Shown here: positions 55,189 to 60,483 of the stretch, piece after piece
How positions within the stretch are numbered: the first letter of the stretch is position 1
Layout: each line of letters opens with the position of its first letter
Assembly: GCA_963700145.1 (NCBI GenBank)
Contig: OY969474.1
Span: 192,001 to 256,000 of the forward strand
Source: an uncultured Acidobacteriota bacterium
GTDB taxonomy: Bacteria; Acidobacteriota; Thermoanaerobaculia; Multivoradales; UBA5704
DNA: 64,000 nt
Reading direction: 5' to 3'
Program-made: the position numbers and the translations under genes
Notes under the pieces: model-generated
The model's database searches: none
Seen by the model: only the letters and a program-made list of their open reading frames with translations
What the model was told of the DNA's origin: nothing

Positions 55189-55844
55189 GCGAGGCGAGTC
55201 GCCCGCGCCTGCGCGAGCCCTACCCGGCGGCGCCGCGCCCGTACCGGCCGAGCCTCGCCGAGCGGCTCTACCTGCCGCTCATTCCGGGGCTGTTCGTCAC
55301 GCTCAAGCACTTCCTGCGCAACCTCCTCCGCCGGGGCGACACGCCGTACACGATCGAGTACCCCGAGGAGCGCCGCGCCTACAGCCACCGCTTCCGCGGC
55401 CACCACATCCTGACGACGCGCCCGGACGGCTCGGTGCGCTGCGTCGCCTGCTACCTCTGCGCCTGGGCCTGCCCGGCGGAGTGCATCCACATCGAGGCCG
55501 GCGAGCACCCGGACGTCAACATCGAGAAGTACCCGCTGGTCTACGAGATCGACATGCTGCGCTGCATCTTCTGCGGCTACTGCGTGGACGCCTGCCCGGA
55601 AGAGGCCATCATCATGTCCAACAACTACGACATGGCCTACTTCAACCGCGAGCAGTCGATCGTCGGCAAGTCCGACCTGATGAAGCCGTTCACCTTCGAC
55701 GAGGACCAGCTCGGCTACCGGCCGCGGTATCCTGAAGAGGACGCCCAGCGCGCCCGCATGCGGCGCGAGGCCTTCTCGATCGTCGAAGCCGCCCGCGCCG
55801 CCCAGGAGCGCGAAGAGCTGGCGGCCCGGGCCGGCGGCCGCTAA
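55185..55844 (+). CDS. nuoI: NADH-quinone oxidoreductase subunit I
   Basis: [19 protein letters not shown] and [15 protein letters not shown] at 55185. Confidence 0.93.
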
Positions 55845-56797
55845 CCGCCCCCCTCCCCCTCACCGGCAGAGGCCGGGACGGCGTCGAGCACCGCGTCGTC
55901 GAGCGGCAGAGCGAGCGCGGCCAGGTTCTCCTCGAGCTGGGCCGCCGACGTGACGCCGAGCAGGACGCTCGAAAGGCCCGGCTGCCGCAGCAGCCAGCGC
56001 AGCGCGAGCTGGGCGGGCGAGACGCCGTGGCCCTTGGCCAGGTCCGCCAGGCGCCGCGCGTAGGCGATCGCCTCGGGTCCGGCGTTCTCCCGCAGCCAGG
56101 CGTGGGCCTCCAGACGCGTGTCGGCGCCGATCCCCTGCGCGTACTTGTTGGTCAGCACGCCGGAGGCCAGCGGGCTCCAGGCGAAGAGCCCGAGCCCGGT
56201 CTCCGCGAGCACCGGCAGCACCTCTTCCTGGACGCGCCGCCGGACCAGCAGGTTGAACTGGCTCTGCTCGACGATGGGCGCGTGCCATCCCGCCGCCCGG
56301 CAGAGCTCGACGGCGCGGCGGATCTCGGCGGCGGGCCATTGGCTGGTGCCCCAGTAGAGGAGCTTGCCGGCCCGGCAGAGGTCCTCCATCGCCCGGGCGG
56401 TCTCCTCGATCTCGGTCTCGGGGTCGTGGCGGTGGCAGAAGTAGATGTCGAGGTGATCGAGCCCCAGCCGGGCCAGCGACCCTTCGACCGACTCGACGAC
56501 GTGCTTGCGCGACAGGCCGCGCTCGGTCACGTGCGGGCCGGTGGGGAAGAAGGCCTTGCTGGTGACGACGATCGCGCTCCGCGGCAGCGCCTTGAGGATC
56601 GGCCCCAGCAGCGCCTCCGCCTCGCCTTGCGCGTAGACGTCGGCGAGATCGAAGAGGTTGATCCCGGCGTCGAATGCGCGGCGGACGAGCGCCGCCGCCT
56701 CGCCGCGGTCGCGGAGCTTGGCGCCGAAGGTCAGCCAGGCGCCGAGACCGAAGACGCTCACCTTGAGACCCGACCGGCCGACGCGGCGATATTCCAT
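55841..56797 (-). CDS. Aldo/keto reductase (Kv-beta/Tas-like)
   Basis: MEYRRVGRSGLKVS..GLGAWLTFG, FDLADVY, GLSRKH, DIYFCHR, WSPLASGVL and QLEENL. Confidence 0.92.
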   Translation of the reverse strand: MEYRRVGRSGLKVSVFGLGAWLTFGAKLRDRGEAAALVRRAFDAGINLFDLADVYAQGEAEALLGPILKALPRSAIVVTSKAFFPTGPHVTERGLSRKHVVESVEGSLARLGLDHLDIYFCHRHDPETEIEETARAMEDLCRAGKLLYWGTSQWPAAEIRRAVELCRAAGWHAPIVEQSQFNLLVRRRVQEEVLPVLAETGLGLFAWSPLASGVLTNKYAQGIGADTRLEAHAWLRENAGPEAIAYARRLADLAKGHGVSPAQLALRWLLRQPGLSSVLLGVTSAAQLEENLAALALPLDDAVLDAVPASAGEGEGGG

Positions 56798-56808
56798 TGT
56801 TTCGGTCC

Positions 56809-57978
56809 TCAGGCAGACCGCAGCACGCGCTGCACGGCCTCCACGTAGCTCAGCACCCCGTCGCGCGTGAGCATCGTCGCCGACGGCTCGTAGCCGCCTT
56901 CCTCGTAGATGTGTGGCAGCGGCAGGTAGCCGACGTAGTCGTTGGCATAGCTGACCGGCAGGCAGGCGGCCGGGTCCGCGACGCAGCCGCGGATGCGGTC
57001 GCCCGTCTCGGCCAGGCACTCTCCGCCGAGCGCGGCCAGTGCCACCGGGCCGATCCTCAGCACCTGCGCCTCGACGCGCATCCCGCCGTCCCGCGCCGTC
57101 CGCCGCCGCTGTGCGACGGTGAGGTAGGGGTGGTCCTTGCCTTCGAGCAAGCTCTCCGCGCTGGCGGCGGACAGGGCGACGGACGGCTGGCCCGCCGCAG
57201 TCCGCACCGCCGCGAGCGCGGCGTCCGCCACGGCGCGGGCGACCTCCTCCACCTGCGCGTACGTGCCCCCGGTCCACACCCGCGGGTTGTTGTCCCCGGC
57301 GGCGCCGTTCAGGAAGAGCCAGGCGCCCCCGGTCTCGCGCTCCAGGGTCGTGGTCAGCACGCCGCACCAGTCGCCGCTGACCATCAGGCTGTCGCCGCCG
57401 AGGACGACGGGGTGCATGGCGGCGTGCACGAGCCGCGCGATCGGGGCGCCGCCGGACGCCGCGAACGACAGCACCGCCAGGCGCCGGTCGACGGGTCCCT
57501 CGGGGTTCGGCTCGAGCCGGACCGCCCCGTCGCGGGGGTGGCGGCGGTTGACCGCCGTGTCGATCGTGCCGTGACCGACGCGCAGCTCGCAGTCTTCGAG
57601 GCGGTGGGCGGCGCGGAAGACGGTGCCGGCGACCTGGTGCACCAGCGTCGTCAGCCACCAGTCGCTGATCGGCGGGGCGAAGGCGTACCAGTCGAGCGTG
57701 TCCGGGCCGGAGTGGGTGTGCGTACACGCCACCAGGACGTGCGCGGGCGGGATCCCGGTGAGCCGCTCGACGGCCGCCCGGATGCGCGCGACGTGGTCGC
57801 GCTCGAGCCAGAGCAGATCGCAGGAGACGACGGCGTAGCGCCGGCCGTCCTGCTCCAGGACCAGCGCCCGGGCGTGGAGCTCGTCGGCGACGTCCACGGC
57901 GATGCGCCGACCCCGGTGGCCGGCGAGCTGCACGGGCAGGGGCGGGGTGACGACGGTCCTGGCGGCCCCGGCCTTCAG
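56809..57978 (-). CDS. Neutral/alkaline ceramidase-like amidohydrolase
   Basis: KAGAARTVVTP...DELHARALVL...CTHTHSGP...MHPV...SGDW.G...NGAAGD..P...SYANDYVGYLP...GGYE; probable CTG start overlaps the rSAM stop after GGAGG. Confidence 0.8.
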   Translation of the reverse strand: MKAGAARTVVTPPLPVQLAGHRGRRIAVDVADELHARALVLEQDGRRYAVVSCDLLWLERDHVARIRAAVERLTGIPPAHVLVACTHTHSGPDTLDWYAFAPPISDWWLTTLVHQVAGTVFRAAHRLEDCELRVGHGTIDTAVNRRHPRDGAVRLEPNPEGPVDRRLAVLSFAASGGAPIARLVHAAMHPVVLGGDSLMVSGDWCGVLTTTLERETGGAWLFLNGAAGDNNPRVWTGGTYAQVEEVARAVADAALAAVRTAAGQPSVALSAASAESLLEGKDHPYLTVAQRRRTARDGGMRVEAQVLRIGPVALAALGGECLAETGDRIRGCVADPAACLPVSYANDYVGYLPLPHIYEEGGYEPSATMLTRDGVLSYVEAVQRVLRSA

Positions 57979-58922: not shown

Positions 58923-58939
58923 GGGGCCTCCGGCGGTGC

Positions 58940-60240
58940 CTATTCGACTTCGTCCGGTTGGAAGCTCGCCAGCGTCCCGGACAGCGCCGGCCGCAGCGTC
59001 AGGCTCGCCCGTCCCGCGGCGATCTCGCCCGCCAACAGCGGGCTGCGGTCGAGGATCGCCTGCCGCAGCGCGGCCAGCAGCGCGGCGGCGCGCTCGGCAT
59101 AGAGGTAGTGCGCGTAGCGCAGCTCGACCGTCACCACGAGCTCGTGACGGCCGGCGTCGCCGCGGTGGTCGAGGCACGCCTTCACGTGGCCCAGCGCCGA
59201 GCGGTCGGCGACGCCGGTCACCTTGGGAAACATCGCCGAGGAGGCGACGTCGGGGTGCTCGTCGAGGACGTCGTAGAGGTCGTGGCCGGCGAGGAGCGCC
59301 GCGGGACCGGAGGGCGTGGGGACGACGACGCAGGACGACAGCCGCCCCCGCAGCTCGAACCCCAGGGGGTCGACCGGGCAGTCGGTCGCGGTGACGGTCA
59401 CGACGTCGCCCGTGAAGTAGCGGATCATCGGCTGCTTCTGGACGAAGGGGCGGAGGCAGGTCAGCACCAGGACGCCGGTGCCGCGCCGGATGGGCGTCGC
59501 CGCGGCCGGGTCCACGACCTCCGGCAGCAGGTGCGGGTCGCAGTGGTAGGCGCCGCACTCGGCGCAGCGGTCGGCCCCGCCGAAGACCTCGCTGAGGCTG
59601 TAGCGGCTGCGCAGCGGCGCGCCCCAGGTCTCCTCCAGCCAGCGCCGCAGCCGGCCGGTCACGAAGTCGCCGGTCGTGACGATGGCGCCGACCCTGGAGA
59701 GTGAGAAGTCGAACCCCGCCTCGATCAGCCGGCAGGTGGCGATCCGCACTTGCGACTCGAGGCCGACGAAGACGGTGTCGCGCCGCCCCGAGCCGTCGCC
59801 CGCGAAGAGGGCGGCGAGCGCACCCGGCTCGACGGGGAGGGTGAAATCCGCGTGGGCGACCGGGCCGCGGTACGGCACCGGCGTCGGCTGCCCGTGGTGC
59901 GAGCCCATCGCCGCGATGCAGGGGGCGCCGGCGGCCAGGGCCTGGCCGCGCTGCAGCTCGAGGAACAGCTCGGCGATGAACTCGAGCTCGGCCGCGCTGC
60001 GGTGGAGGGTCAGCTGGCGGCCGCTGCTGCCGCCGGTCTGCTGCAGGGCGGCCGTCGGCAGGGAGGGATCGACGAAGCTCGCCGCATCCTCGAGCATGCG
60101 CTCCTTGGTGACGACGGGAAGCGCATCCAGCCGCCCGTGGGCGAGGAACTCGTCCCACCGCGAACCCCAGAGGCGGCGATAGCCGGGGACGCTTTCGCGG
60201 GCGTGCGCCAGGGTGCCCGGCAGCAGCGCCGTTCGCAGCC
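58940..60240 (-). CDS. PaaK/F390-synthetase-like adenylate-forming enzyme (start uncertain, upstream of ATG 60097)
   Basis: In-frame upstream LAHARESVPGYRRLW...LDALPVVTKE; QTGGSSG P-loop, TTGD, YSLSE, EVVDP, GVLVLT, PMIRYFTGD and LRGR. Confidence 0.8.
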
Positions 60241-60291
60241 GGTCTCGGTACTCCCGGGGGGCCTCGCTCCGCGGCTCGTCGCGACGATGGC

Positions 60292-60483
60292 CTAGGGAGA
60301 CCGTCGGCCGAACCCCGCGAACTCGGCCAGCACCGCGGCTTCCGCGAGCGCGGCCTCCGCGGCGGCGACCTGGAAGGCGGCCGCTTCGGCGACGAGTGCC
60401 AGCGGCTGGTCCTTGTTGCCGAGGGCGTTGCGATAGAGCTCCGCCAGCTCACTGACCGTGGGGACCGAGAGCGCGATCTTCAT
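60292..60483 (-). CDS. 63-aa peptide, putative RiPP precursor
   Basis: AAGGAGG RBS; MKIALSVPTVSELAELYRNALGNKDQPLA-LVAEAAAFQVAAAEAALAEAAVLAEFAGFGRRSP; first gene of an enzyme operon. Confidence 0.65.
   Translation of the reverse strand: MKIALSVPTVSELAELYRNALGNKDQPLALVAEAAAFQVAAAEAALAEAAVLAEFAGFGRRSP

What the first reader, a model, noticed from the sequence alone, without database searches (positions are those of the whole stretch)
55841..60483. Candidate novel RiPP cluster: Ala/Glu-repeat peptide + PaaK-like ligase + radical SAM + amidohydrolase + reductase
Five co-directional, tightly packed genes start with a 63-aa ORF that has a strong AAGGAGG RBS. The peptide splits into a leader-like half (PTVSELAELY) and a low-complexity core with four xAExA units (VAEAA, AAEAA, LAEAA, LAEFA) and no Cys, Trp or internal Ser/Thr. 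That rules out typical sacti/ranthi/lanthipeptide chemistry. Plausible chemistry (inference) is radical epimerisation or C-C crosslinking of the core, adenylation-driven acylation or amidation of Glu or the termini, then amide hydrolysis and carbonyl reduction. I do not recognise this enzyme combination from a described class. No RRE, transporter or protease is evident in the operon.
Basis: partly seen in the sequence, partly recalled or inferred. Interest (0 to 1): 0.82.

Follow-up and report, generated by a model that had tools for sequence, protein, structure and literature searches.

The report
Ala/Glu-repeat peptide plus ligase island
A five-gene insertion in a high-GC bacterium pairs a small alanine/glutamate-repeat peptide with an unusual adenylate-forming ligase; the same pairing recurs in many other bacteria and probably marks an undescribed way of modifying peptides.

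Summary
Window 55841-60483 (minus strand) carries five packed genes: a 63-aa peptide, a divergent PaaK-like ligase, a radical SAM/SPASM enzyme, a ceramidase-like amidohydrolase and an aldo-keto reductase. Two same-genus genomes lack exactly 55843-60496, so the five genes are one strain-variable insertion. The upstream glyoxalase-family gene is not part of it.

The peptide ORF is real. It has coding-type GC3. Its N-terminal L-x-x-L-Y-[RQ]-x-A motif and periodic Glu repeats recur next to ligase homologues in metagenome, genome and plasmid loci. A periodic-Glu run of 6 or more lies beside the ligase in 13 of 30 loci and in 0 of 4420 other ORFs.

The conserved core is peptide plus ligase, not the whole enzyme set. 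Accessory genes differ by lineage. Homologues of this radical SAM enzyme in three plasmid loci that lack the ligase have no such peptide and sit among small-molecule genes.

Best reading (about 0.5): a RiPP-like system in which the ligase activates the repeat Glu carboxylates, and the three downstream enzymes make or tailor the partner or the conjugate. The chemistry is inferred. Neither Pfam, NCBIfam nor my literature searches named the pairing.

The parts
55843..60496 (-). Inserted segment (about 4.65 kb) holding the five-gene operon. It is absent from two same-genus genomes and from one soil-metagenome contig.
   Evidence: In blastn against G004 and G003, the flanks align at 96-97% and 89% identity and this segment is skipped. 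The junction sequences were read. A contig of run X3 joins 55825 to 60499; contigs of X1 and X2 carry the segment. GC is 0.742 against 0.702 and 0.694 in the flanks.
60490..60496 (-). Shine-Dalgarno-like AAGGAGG, 6 nt before the peptide ATG.
   Evidence: Read directly from the sequence.
60292..60483 (-). 63-aa Ala/Glu-repeat peptide gene (stop codon included).
   Evidence: ORF listed. GC3 is 0.89 and GC2 0.49. Homologous ORFs lie beside ligase homologues. The one difference listed inside this ORF, 60397 T>C, is shown by contigs of three of the four soil runs and is synonymous, gca to gcg (353 further differences on the 5-kb stretch were not shown).
60409..60459 (-). Conserved N-terminal motif, residues 9-25 (TVSELAELYRNALGNKD). 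L16 and Y17 are invariant in 12 aligned homologues; L13 and A20 are nearly invariant.
   Evidence: Alignment A3; motif windows.
60313..60393 (-). Repeat (core-like) region, residues 31-57, with four xAExx units at E33, E43, E48 and E54.
   Evidence: Translation. The family consensus is [A/V]-A-E-[P/A]-[L/M/I/F] with period 5.
58940..60238 (-). Divergent PaaK-like adenylate-forming ligase. The start is unresolved: CTG 60238 is the only near-cognate codon, and a database entry identical in sequence (P0001, 385 aa) matches a start at ATG 60097.
   Evidence: homologues of 433-461 aa cover the upstream part. NCBIfam best hit is the DVU_1553 family, 65 bits against a cut-off of 300. PDB profile hit to PaaK 4r1l, E 8e-16. 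AF2 model pLDDT 86.2, TM 0.64-0.65 to PaaK1, BT_0428 and ClxA.
57975..58922 (-). Radical SAM enzyme with a C-terminal SPASM-like Cys-rich domain, 315 aa, with no N-terminal extension before the CX3CX2C.
   Evidence: Pfam. C15, C19 and C22 are invariant in 22 sequences. AF2 pLDDT 90.7. The best folds are anSMEcpe, BlsE, CteB, SkfB and SuiB.
56809..57978 (-). Ceramidase_alk-like amidohydrolase, 389 aa, with a probable CTG start overlapping the rSAM stop (CTGA).
   Evidence: Pfam PF04734, 54 bits. Start column from alignment A4. Shares 12 contig lengths with rSAM homologues. Sits next to the rSAM on Sphingopyxis plasmid pSfKp5.2.
55841..56797 (-). Aldo-keto reductase (Kv-beta-like), 318 aa. Its stop overlaps the stop of the convergent nuoI gene.
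   Evidence: Pfam PF00248, 242 bits. TIGR01293, 263.6 bits against a cut-off of 365.4. Sequence read.

Best explanation
A horizontally acquired five-gene operon. Its conserved core is a substrate-enzyme pair: a small protein and a divergent PaaK-like ANL ligase.

The small protein has an N-terminal L-x-x-L-Y-[RQ]-x-A helix, followed by periodic Glu units (here four xAExx units; in relatives up to dozens of AAEP[LMFI] or [SA]E[AV]x units).

Proposed mechanism: the ligase docks on the N-terminal motif and adenylates the gamma-carboxylates of the repeat Glu residues. These are the only conserved functional groups in the repeats. The ligase then passes them to a nucleophile, giving a peptide decorated once per repeat.

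The three downstream enzymes (SPASM radical SAM, ceramidase-like amidohydrolase, AKR) are a lineage-specific accessory module. They make or tailor the partner molecule or the conjugate.

Shown: gene anatomy, island boundaries, family and fold assignments, and conservation of the peptide-ligase pair.
Inferred: that the peptide is the ligase's substrate, that Glu is the site, and what the accessory enzymes do.
For: 1. One unit. G004 and G003 lack exactly 55843-60496. An empty-site contig and island-bearing contigs at about 94% and 98.5% identity exist in soil runs.

2. Peptide-ligase linkage. By tblastn and ORF reading, short ORFs with the L-x-x-L-Y motif and AE units flank ligase homologues. 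AE-dense ORFs were flagged only beside the ligase: 0 of 3669 ORFs in the loci were flagged elsewhere. A motif HMM was built from 11 such ORFs, which match it by construction. It found one further independent ORF (L037, E 2e-12). Nothing else scored better than E 0.41 among six-frame ORFs of the window and the loci then held. A periodic-Glu run of 6 or more lies beside the ligase in 13 of 30 non-redundant loci. The maximum is 5 in 4420 other ORFs. These loci include plasmids of Rhizobium and Mesorhizobium and genome G016.

3. In the repeats, Glu is invariant. Neighbouring positions are Ala, Pro or hydrophobic, so no nucleophile is conserved. An adenylate-forming enzyme needs a carboxylate (established ANL chemistry).

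4. The ligase keeps the ANL motifs in the PaaK alignment: TGGTSG against SSGTTG, SExFGG against TEMNG, RYWTGD against RYRTRD. It also has the PaaK fold.

5. Accessory sets differ. The SPASM rSAM accompanies the pair here, in G350 and on 2 contigs. An STM4012-type rSAM with a TehB-like methyltransferase accompanies it in 6 loci. An S8 peptidase with nucleotide-type enzymes accompanies it on rhizobial plasmids.

6. Stop/start overlap or short gaps occur in this operon and in G350.
Against: - There are no biochemical data, and no modified product is known.
- The window peptide has only four imperfect units (Glu spacings 10, 5 and 6).
- The ligase start codon is unresolved.
- I did not locate the ANL C-terminal catalytic Lys. 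The family's C-terminal domain did not align by sequence.
- Homologues of this rSAM in three plasmid loci without a ligase have no such peptide and sit among transport and small-molecule genes. The rSAM may therefore never touch the peptide.
- 13 contigs of closer ligase homologues (10 clusters) share no contig length with the 50 listed rSAM homologues. The rSAM is therefore dispensable for the pair.
- Seven of the 30 loci showed no candidate peptide at all (L025, L031-L036). L025 and L031 have almost no flank; L036 has an Ala/Glu-rich repeat ORF upstream by eye.
Confidence: 0.5

Rival explanations
1. Two unrelated modules were transferred together. Peptide plus ligase is one system. The rSAM, ceramidase-like enzyme and AKR form a small-molecule (for example amino-sugar or N-acyl compound) pathway with no shared substrate.
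For: - rSAM and ceramidase-like homologues share 12 contig lengths, and none of these is shared with a listed ligase.
- On Sphingopyxis plasmid pSfKp5.2 the order is rSAM, ceramidase-like, hypothetical.
- Other rSAM contexts hold AnmK, CoA-transferase, NagA-like amidohydrolase, class-III aminotransferase, an SSF symporter and a TonB receptor.
- Those loci have no repeat peptide.
- The rSAM fold neighbours include small-molecule enzymes (BlsE, DesII, BtrN).
Against: - The five genes are one insertion with overlapping or near-touching reading frames.
- The rSAM sits directly beside the ligase, without the ceramidase-like gene, in G350 with a 4-nt overlap.
- The rSAM shares contig lengths with the ligase twice more (3082 and 27261).
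Confidence: 0.2
2. A classical radical-SAM RiPP. The SPASM enzyme crosslinks or epimerises the Ala/Glu core, and the ligase, amidohydrolase and reductase are tailoring steps.
For: - SPASM-type rSAM. The best NCBIfam matches are peptide or protein maturases: MftC 1.8e-14, ScmE and StsB, all far below their cut-offs.
- Fold neighbours include anSME, CteB, SkfB, SuiB and ChlB.
- The rSAM co-occurs with the ligase at four places (window, G350 and two contigs).
Against: - No RRE or PqqD-like domain, and no extension before the cluster motif.
- The core lacks Cys and, in most units, aromatic residues.
- The peptide follows the ligase, not the rSAM.
- In most related loci a different rSAM class, or none, is present.
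Confidence: 0.15
3. The small protein is not a substrate. It is a partner of the ligase: an activator like the MbtH-like proteins of NRPS adenylation domains (recalled), a regulator, or a structural or scaffold protein.
For: - Strict adjacency to an ANL enzyme.
- A conserved N-terminal helix motif.
- In L018 and L028 the protein carries a peptidoglycan-binding-like segment between the motif and the repeats.
Against: - Length varies from 58 aa to more than 340 aa through expansion of a 4- or 5-residue unit. This is typical of multi-site substrates, not of a fixed partner.
- Peptidase genes lie beside the pair on rhizobial plasmids.
Confidence: 0.1
4. The 63-aa ORF is a chance open frame in GC-rich DNA, or it is the frameshifted N-terminus of the ligase.
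For: GC-rich genomes are full of spurious ORFs. The ligase lacks a canonical start just downstream of the ORF.
Against: - Coding-type GC3 in this frame only, and a strong RBS.
- Conserved homologues exist as separate ORFs in other loci.
- Independent contigs X1 (59284-60571) and X2 (57216-60700) show 0 gaps over the junction.
- Ligase homologues start near the column of window position about 60260, not inside the peptide.
Confidence: 0.02

Closest known systems
Phenylacetate-CoA ligase PaaK and relatives (ANL superfamily, PaaK clade)
   Same: Two-domain fold: TM 0.64-0.65 to 2y27, 4rvo and 6he2. The P-loop, TE-type and RYxTxD motifs align. Similar length, about 430-460 aa.
   Different: 15-19% identity. 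Far below every curated cut-off (TIGR02155, 35 bits against 646). No Pfam AMP-binding hit. No paa context. Always beside a Glu-repeat ORF.
CoA-independent PaaK-like ester/amide ligases NatL2, AjiA1 and ClxA (benzoxazole pathways; PMC7204872 and PMC12519233, of which I saw only the search listing and the start of each abstract)
   Same: Same fold clade (6tm4, 6wuq and 9s45; 6siw and 6wuq). They show that this clade can pass an acyl-adenylate directly to an O or N nucleophile. NatL2 works together with an amidohydrolase (recalled).
   Different: Their substrates are small aryl acids. No peptide partner is known for them. The amidohydrolase here has a ceramidase-like fold.
RiPP enzymes that activate Asp/Glu side chains: lasso-peptide cyclases (Asn-synthetase-like) and graspetide ATP-grasp ligases (recalled)
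   Same: ATP-dependent activation of side-chain carboxylates of a leader-bearing ribosomal peptide is the mechanism proposed here.
   Different: Different enzyme superfamilies. Those peptides carry the nucleophile themselves, whereas the repeats here have none.
Multi-core repeat precursors of radical-SAM RiPPs, for example the WprA/WprB/WprP systems (PMC11851443, PMC12957482; search listing and start of abstract only)
   Same: Tandem identical short units in one precursor, an rSAM enzyme, and a peptidase that cuts uniform units (the S8 peptidase on rhizobial plasmids).
   Different: Those units contain aromatic or basic residues that are crosslinked. Here the units are Ala/Glu/Pro/aliphatic, and the constant enzyme is a ligase, not the rSAM.
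Peptide-derived cofactor pathways with SPASM enzymes (mycofactocin MftC, PQQ PqqE)
   Same: SPASM rSAM plus amidohydrolase plus redox enzyme beside a short peptide. PqqE attacks a Glu (recalled).
   Different: TIGR03962 scores 53.7 bits against a cut-off of 265. There is no PqqD/MftB-type chaperone. The peptides are unrelated.
Microcin C-type peptide-nucleotide conjugates and pearlin-type scaffold peptides (recalled)
   Same: A small peptide beside an adenylating enzyme. On rhizobial plasmids the pair lies with FolE, QueE, PurA/PurB-like and IMPDH-like genes. This suggests a nucleoside partner.
   Different: MccB is ThiF-like and PEARLs are LanB-like and tRNA-dependent. Both act at the C-terminus, not on periodic side chains.

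Membership tests
RiPP biosynthetic gene cluster (generic definition, recalled) | A short precursor gene next to modifying enzymes | tested here: met
   The 63-aa ORF lies at the head of the operon.
RiPP biosynthetic gene cluster (generic definition, recalled) | Conserved recognition (leader-like) part and variable core among homologues | tested here: met
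   L16 and Y17 are invariant. The repeat number varies from 2 to more than 40 units.
RiPP biosynthetic gene cluster (generic definition, recalled) | The peptide is post-translationally modified | not testable with these tools
   Needs mass spectrometry.
RiPP biosynthetic gene cluster (generic definition, recalled) | RRE (PqqD-like) domain. Common but not obligatory. | tested here: not met
   No PqqD-type Pfam hit at E up to 0.01 in any of the six proteins scanned.
RiPP biosynthetic gene cluster (generic definition, recalled) | Leader peptidase or exporter in the cluster. Common but not obligatory. | tested here: not met
   None in the window operon. S8 peptidases lie beside distant ligase homologues on plasmids.
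PaaK phenylacetate-CoA ligase | Score above the curated family cut-off | tested here: not met
   TIGR02155, 35.3 bits against 646.3. NF041878, 43.2 bits against 700.
PaaK phenylacetate-CoA ligase | PaaK-type two-domain ANL fold with nucleotide-binding motifs | tested here: met
   Foldseek E 8e-22, TM 0.64 to 2y27. The motifs align.
PaaK phenylacetate-CoA ligase | paa catabolic gene context | tested here: not met
   The neighbours are the peptide, rSAM, amidohydrolase and AKR.
DVU_1553 family AMP-dependent CoA ligase (NF045666) | Score above the cut-off | tested here: not met
   65 bits against 300. Relatives score 79.5 and 95 bits.
Radical SAM / SPASM | CX3CX2C cluster motif and Radical_SAM domain | tested here: met
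   CNIACSLC is in the sequence. PF04055 scores 52.7 bits against 29.5. The three Cys are invariant.
Radical SAM / SPASM | C-terminal SPASM domain | tested here: inconclusive
   PF13186 scores 20.6 bits against a cut-off of 21.5 in the window. Homologues score 22.9 bits (G350) and 40.5 bits (Croceicoccus). There are seven Cys in the last roughly 90 residues.
Mycofactocin maturase MftC / PQQ PqqE systems | Equivalog score and partner genes (MftA/B/D/E or PqqA/B/C/D) | tested here: not met
   TIGR03962, 53.7 bits against 265. There are no partner families in the operon.
Neutral ceramidase | N-terminal catalytic domain | tested here: met
   PF04734, 54 bits against 32.1, over residues 31-218. PDB hits 2zws and 4wgk at E about 1e-6.
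Neutral ceramidase | Full-length architecture and equivalog score | tested here: not met
   389 aa against a 636-position profile. NF041649 scores 29.4 bits against 1200.
Aldo-keto reductase | AKR domain over the full length | tested here: met
   PF00248, 242.4 bits, positions 3-286 of 291.
Known anti-phage defence systems (PADLOC 2.0) | A match to any system protein | tested here: not met
   The only match is a weak generic rSAM match to pVip, 2.3e-8.

The most novel reading that the evidence does not exclude
The Glu-repeat peptide is a multivalent scaffold. The PaaK-like ligase hangs a lineage-specific small molecule on each repeat's Glu side chain. Here that molecule would be an amine or alcohol made or trimmed by the rSAM, ceramidase-like enzyme and AKR. 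On rhizobial plasmids it would be a 7-deazapurine-type nucleoside. This would give either a new class of peptide-small-molecule conjugates or a reusable scaffold from which the amidohydrolase or peptidase releases gamma-glutamyl products. It would be a side-chain analogue of pearlin-type scaffold biosynthesis.
Probability: 0.2. Interest if true: 0.9.

Novelty: new variant of a known kind. Interest (0 to 1): 0.7.

Why it matters
If the ligase modifies the repeat Glu residues, it defines a new RiPP-like class. The class-defining enzyme would be an ANL/PaaK-type ligase, which I found in no described RiPP class (searches).

The family is not a one-off. 494 clusters at 50% identity reach E of 1e-30 or better among 1.84 billion representative proteins. 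They occur in several phyla and on rhizobial plasmids of cultured strains, so the question can be tested directly in tractable organisms.

The modular accessory sets suggest a general way of coupling ribosomal peptides to diverse small molecules. So far these sets include a SPASM rSAM, an STM4012-type rSAM with a methyltransferase, and nucleotide-type enzymes.

The locus also shows two probable non-ATG/GTG/TTG starts. These shorten or hide genes in automatic annotation, and they may be why the pairing has gone unnoticed.

Tried and rejected
- Complex prediction of ligase (A2) with peptide (A3). The job was accepted and collected. Verdict: no answer (scores 0.52, 0.44 and 0.45; one control scored 0.26). 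It is not used as evidence either way.
- ESM Atlas look-up of the peptide: no usable hit.
- Genome-contig scans with A2 and with P0003: no confirmed locus.
- Literature. PaaK + RiPP + radical SAM + precursor peptide: none of the 20 listed papers holds 'PaaK'. STM4011-13 and DVU_1553: 2 papers hold a term, neither in title or abstract and neither read. F390 synthetase / PaaK-like + RiPP: none of the 15 listed papers holds the ligase terms. 7-deazapurine + precursor peptide. One preprint was searched for Rhizobium, F390, PaaK and peptide terms, with 0 occurrences. Subscription journals and supplements were not visible.
- Promoter and terminator scan of 55500-61200: no site inside the operon.
- Flanking direct or inverted repeats at the island ends: none convincing. 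No integrase or tRNA lies near the window island.
- Expression: no RNA holder listed.
- Frameshift or assembly error at the ligase start: rejected, because independent contigs show 0 gaps there.
- VOC/glyoxalase gene as part of the cluster: rejected, because it is present beside nuoI in genomes that lack the island.
- The rSAM fold as a way to tell peptide from small-molecule substrates: the neighbours are mixed (anSME, BlsE, CteB, DesII, BtrN), so it does not discriminate.
- A family-specific CxxC...H...C zinc site in the ligase: not pursued, because the region aligns with ordinary PaaK sequence.
- A resemblance of the A-E-x-x-A unit to the peptidoglycan stem peptide, together with the PG-binding-like segment in L018 and L028 and the AnmK, NagA-like and NlpC/P60 neighbours of rSAM homologues: noted as an idea only and untested.

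Full report
**Anatomy.**
The window is GC-rich (0.71). Between the convergent genes nuoI (plus strand, ending at 55844) and a VOC/glyoxalase-family gene (minus strand, 60948-60499) lie five minus-strand genes.

| Gene | Coordinates | Notes |
|---|---|---|
| Peptide, 63 aa | ATG 60483 to TAG 60292 | AAGGAGG lies 6 nt upstream of the ATG |
| Ligase | stop at 58940 | no Pfam hit; weak NCBIfam hits to DVU_1553-family, BagE/FevW, PaaK and FlxY ligases, all far below their cut-offs |
| Radical SAM | GTG 58922 to 57975 | CX3CX2C at residues 15-22; Cys-rich SPASM-like end |
| Ceramidase_alk-like amidohydrolase | 57978 to 56809 | 389 aa |
| Aldo-keto reductase | ATG 56797 to 55841 | Kv-beta-like |

The gaps are 17 nt (ligase to rSAM), a 4-nt overlap (rSAM to ceramidase-like gene) and 11 nt (ceramidase-like gene to AKR). 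The peptide ORF has GC1/2/3 of 0.78/0.49/0.89, the pattern of the neighbouring genes. The two other frames of the same stretch do not show it.

**Two start codons need comment.**
- *Ligase.* Its homologues are 433-461 aa and cover 95-99% of a query that begins at 60289. The alignment shows that the conserved N-terminus, including the invariant P and K of the LPxxxK motif, lies upstream of the first ATG at 60097. That frame is open back to 60448 but holds no ATG, GTG or TTG. GC3 stays at 0.87 between 60098 and 60238. CTG 60238 aligns exactly with Met1 of homologue P0007.
- *No assembly error.* Independent soil-metagenome contigs cover 59284-60571 (X1, 18 differences) and 57216-60700 (X2, 203 differences) with no gaps. 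An indel at the ligase start is therefore unlikely.
- *Ceramidase-like gene.* In 8 of 10 homologues residue 1 falls at the column of CTG 57978. GGAGG precedes this codon by 7 nt, and the codon overlaps the rSAM stop as CTGA.
- A database entry identical in sequence to the ligase (P0001, 385 aa) matches a start at the internal ATG 60097. A 90%-identical relative of the ceramidase-like protein (P0062) is likewise called from an internal start.

**The five genes are one insertion.**
Same-genus genome G004 has KorA 98% identical. Its DNA aligns to window 52915-55842 and then directly to 60497-60981. G003 does the same, with 347 bp of other sequence between.

In G004 the stops of nuoI and the VOC gene are 8 nt apart. 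So 55843-60496, which is exactly peptide through AKR, is missing there, and the VOC gene is not part of the unit.

A contig of soil run X3 joins 55825 to 60499, the empty site. Contigs of X1 and X2 carry the island at the same place. The island's GC is 0.742 against about 0.70 in the flanks.

Searches among relatives:

| Query | Genomes searched | Result |
|---|---|---|
| rSAM | 40 relatives | no match at E up to 1e-25 |
| Ligase | 40 relatives | best match 33% identity, in one same-family genome (G016) |
| Ligase, rSAM | 400 genomes of the phylum | both found only in G350 |
| Ligase profile | 400 genomes of the class | four genomes |
| rSAM profile | 400 genomes of the class | none |

No integrase, tRNA, terminator-like site or flanking repeat marks the island in the window.

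**The peptide belongs to a family that follows the ligase.**
- A metagenome scan gave 24 ligase loci. By tblastn, the window's rSAM, ceramidase-like protein and AKR hit none of them, but the peptide hit L020 just upstream of its ligase.
- Reading the flanks showed ORFs beginning with M-x(2-10)-[LV]-x-x-L-x-x-L-Y-[RQK]-x-A. These continue into Ala/Glu units.
- AE-dense ORFs were flagged only beside the ligase: 0 of 3669 ORFs in the loci were flagged elsewhere.
- I built an HMM from 11 motif windows, and these match it by construction. It found one further independent ORF (L037, E 2e-12) plus duplicates. Nothing else scored below E 0.41 among six-frame ORFs of at least 30 aa in the window and the loci then held.
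- In an alignment of 12 such proteins, L16 and Y17 (window numbering) are invariant, and L13 and A20 nearly so.
- Anchored on A/G-E, 161 units give the consensus [A/V]-A-E-[P/A]-[L/M/I/F]-A-A with period 5.
- Lengths run from 58 aa to more than 340 aa. Two proteins (L018, L028) carry a peptidoglycan-binding-like segment between the motif and the repeats.
- A second flavour, with period-4 [S/A]-E-[A/V]-x repeats, lies upstream of ligase homologues. It occurs in G016, on a Rhizobium leguminosarum plasmid and on a Mesorhizobium plasmid. A Roseibium plasmid has the L-Y motif type.
- Over 30 non-redundant ligase loci, a periodic-Glu run of 6 or more lies beside the ligase in 13 loci. One of these, L048, is doubtful as to reading frame. 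The maximum is 5 in 4420 other ORFs.
- Counting motif hits as well, 19 of 30 loci have a clear candidate. Four more (L014, L015, L016, L061) have weaker candidates by eye. L025 and L031 have almost no flank. L032-L035 show none. L036 has a longer-period FAEALEA-type ORF.
- In G350 and L014 the ORF lies downstream of the ligase rather than upstream.

**The ligase.**
- A profile of ten family members hits PaaK structures: 4r1l at E 8e-16, then 2y4o, 2y27, AjiA1 and NatL2. The P-loop, the T/S-E motif and the RYxTxD motif align.
- The AF2 model (pLDDT 86.2, pTM 0.84) superposes over its full length on PaaK1/2, BT_0428, ClxA, HCL, NatL2 and AjiA1. TM is 0.55-0.65 and identity 15-19%.
- It is therefore a divergent member of the PaaK clade of ANL enzymes. 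It is not a phenylacetate-CoA ligase by any curated threshold.
- Across 1.84 billion representative proteins, 494 reach E of 1e-30 or better. Almost all match over the full length and are 430-500 aa long.

**What accompanies the pair differs by lineage.**
- *SPASM rSAM.* In G350 a 36%-identical SPASM rSAM overlaps the ligase start by 4 nt, and the motif-bearing ORF follows. The cassette lies between an integrase and a tRNA-Leu, beside a class-III aminotransferase. Matching contig lengths (3082 and 27261) place ligase and rSAM homologues together twice more.
- *STM4012-type rSAM.* In six loci with ligases 31-34% identical, the pair is followed by a HemN-like rSAM. One of them scanned against NCBIfam, L025, meets the STM4012-family cut-off (391.8 bits against 380). 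The six also carry a TehB-like methyltransferase, and three have a roughly 150-aa protein with weak nucleoside-deoxyribosyltransferase-like hits.
- *Rhizobial plasmids.* The ligase, annotated 'CoF synthetase' or hypothetical, is followed by an S8 peptidase and by FolE, adenylosuccinate-synthetase-like, PurB, QueE, IMPDH-like and HAD genes. On the Mesorhizobium plasmid it is followed by a beta-RFAP-synthase-family gene, a PurC-like gene and PurH.
- *Pair alone.* Several loci show only the pair (L020/L021, L026, L027).
- *rSAM not obligatory.* 13 contigs of closer ligase homologues (10 clusters), some of 15-44 kb, share no contig length with the 50 listed rSAM homologues.

**The rSAM has a life of its own.**
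- Its homologues share 12 contig lengths with homologues of the ceramidase-like protein. The two genes are adjacent on Sphingopyxis plasmid pSfKp5.2.
- On a Terrarubrum plasmid the rSAM sits with AnmK and a family-III CoA-transferase. On a Croceicoccus plasmid it sits with a NagA-like amidohydrolase, a HAD hydrolase, a class-III aminotransferase, an SSF symporter and a TonB-dependent receptor.
- None of these three loci has a motif-bearing or Glu-periodic ORF.
- The rSAM model (pLDDT 90.7) resembles both peptide- and protein-modifying enzymes (anSMEcpe, CteB, SkfB, SuiB, ChlB) and small-molecule enzymes (BlsE, DesII, BtrN). The fold therefore does not decide the substrate.
- It has no N-terminal extension and no PqqD-like domain.

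**Interpretation.**
*Shown:*
- The inserted unit and its boundaries.
- A conserved peptide-ligase pair.
- The family and fold assignments.

*Inferred:*
- The peptide is the ligase's substrate.
- The invariant, periodically spaced Glu is the site. It is the only conserved functional group in the repeats and the kind of group that an adenylate-forming enzyme activates.

Because the repeats hold no conserved nucleophile, an external partner is the most economical reading. The varied accessory sets (sugar- or amide-type here, nucleotide-type on rhizobial plasmids, methyl-transfer type elsewhere) fit enzymes that supply or trim that partner.

I hold this at about 0.5. A chance ORF or a frameshifted ligase N-terminus is essentially excluded.

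**Novelty.**
Pfam and NCBIfam (release of June 2026) have no model for the peptides scanned (9 in all) and none that the ligases scanned reach (window, L025, G350). RefSeq calls the rhizobial small ORFs hypothetical. PADLOC has nothing. My literature searches found no paper linking PaaK- or F390-synthetase-like ligases to ribosomal peptides. Subscription journals and supplementary files were not visible.

I rate it a new variant of a known kind: a RiPP-like peptide-modification cluster with an unprecedented constant enzyme and precursor type.

Noticed in passing
window 60098-60238 and 57976-57978: Two of the five island genes (the ligase and the ceramidase-like gene) lack an ATG, GTG or TTG at the position where their homologues start. 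In-frame CTG codons sit there instead. A database entry identical in sequence to the ligase (P0001, 385 aa) matches a start at the internal ATG 60097, and a 90%-identical relative of the ceramidase-like protein is likewise called from an internal start.
   Followed up: partly
L063 (Rhizobium leguminosarum pRL23b2, locus 5471-13065); L062 (Mesorhizobium plasmid MesoLjLa4): Distant ligase homologues (27-31% identity) lie behind 83-88-aa ORFs made of period-4 [S/A]E[A/V]x repeats. An S8 peptidase follows, then FolE, PurA-like, PurB, QueE, IMPDH-like and HAD genes. From memory this gene set resembles toyocamycin-type 7-deazapurine nucleoside pathways. It may make a peptide-nucleoside product.
   Followed up: partly
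L040 (G350) 7128-12159: The rSAM-ligase-peptide cassette lies between a phage-type integrase and a tRNA-Leu(CAA), together with a class-III aminotransferase. It looks like an integrated island.
   Followed up: partly
L018 1042-1773 and L028 1219-1974: In two metagenome loci the repeat protein carries a peptidoglycan-binding-like segment between the L-Y motif and the AEP repeats. There is also a weak NCBIfam hit to the His-Xaa-Ser repeat protein HxsA.
   Followed up: no
L024 6927-7961 and L046 10253-10975: Very long precursors with dozens of near-identical AAEP[MLFI] units: 42 AE dipeptides in L024 and 29 in L046.
   Followed up: partly
window 60981-60985 against L055 (G004) 2371-4099: G004 has about 1.7 kb between the VOC gene and korA that the window lacks. 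This is a second indel at the same locus.
   Followed up: no
L056 (G003) about 3325-3670: In G003 the spacer between nuoI and the VOC gene is 347 bp of short, imperfectly repeated words, instead of 8 nt (G004) or the island (window).
   Followed up: no
L058 (Terrarubrum plasmid) 10424-12192: A 91-aa hypothetical protein and a ThiF-family adenylyltransferase lie downstream of an rSAM homologue, AnmK and a CoA-transferase. This is another pairing of a small protein with an adenylating enzyme near this rSAM family.
   Followed up: no
L024 and L028, inside the ligase genes: The ligases of the STM4012-type loci themselves contain an L-Q-[LV]-Y-R-S-A stretch that matches my leader regular expression. 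This is probably coincidence, but I did not examine it.
   Followed up: no
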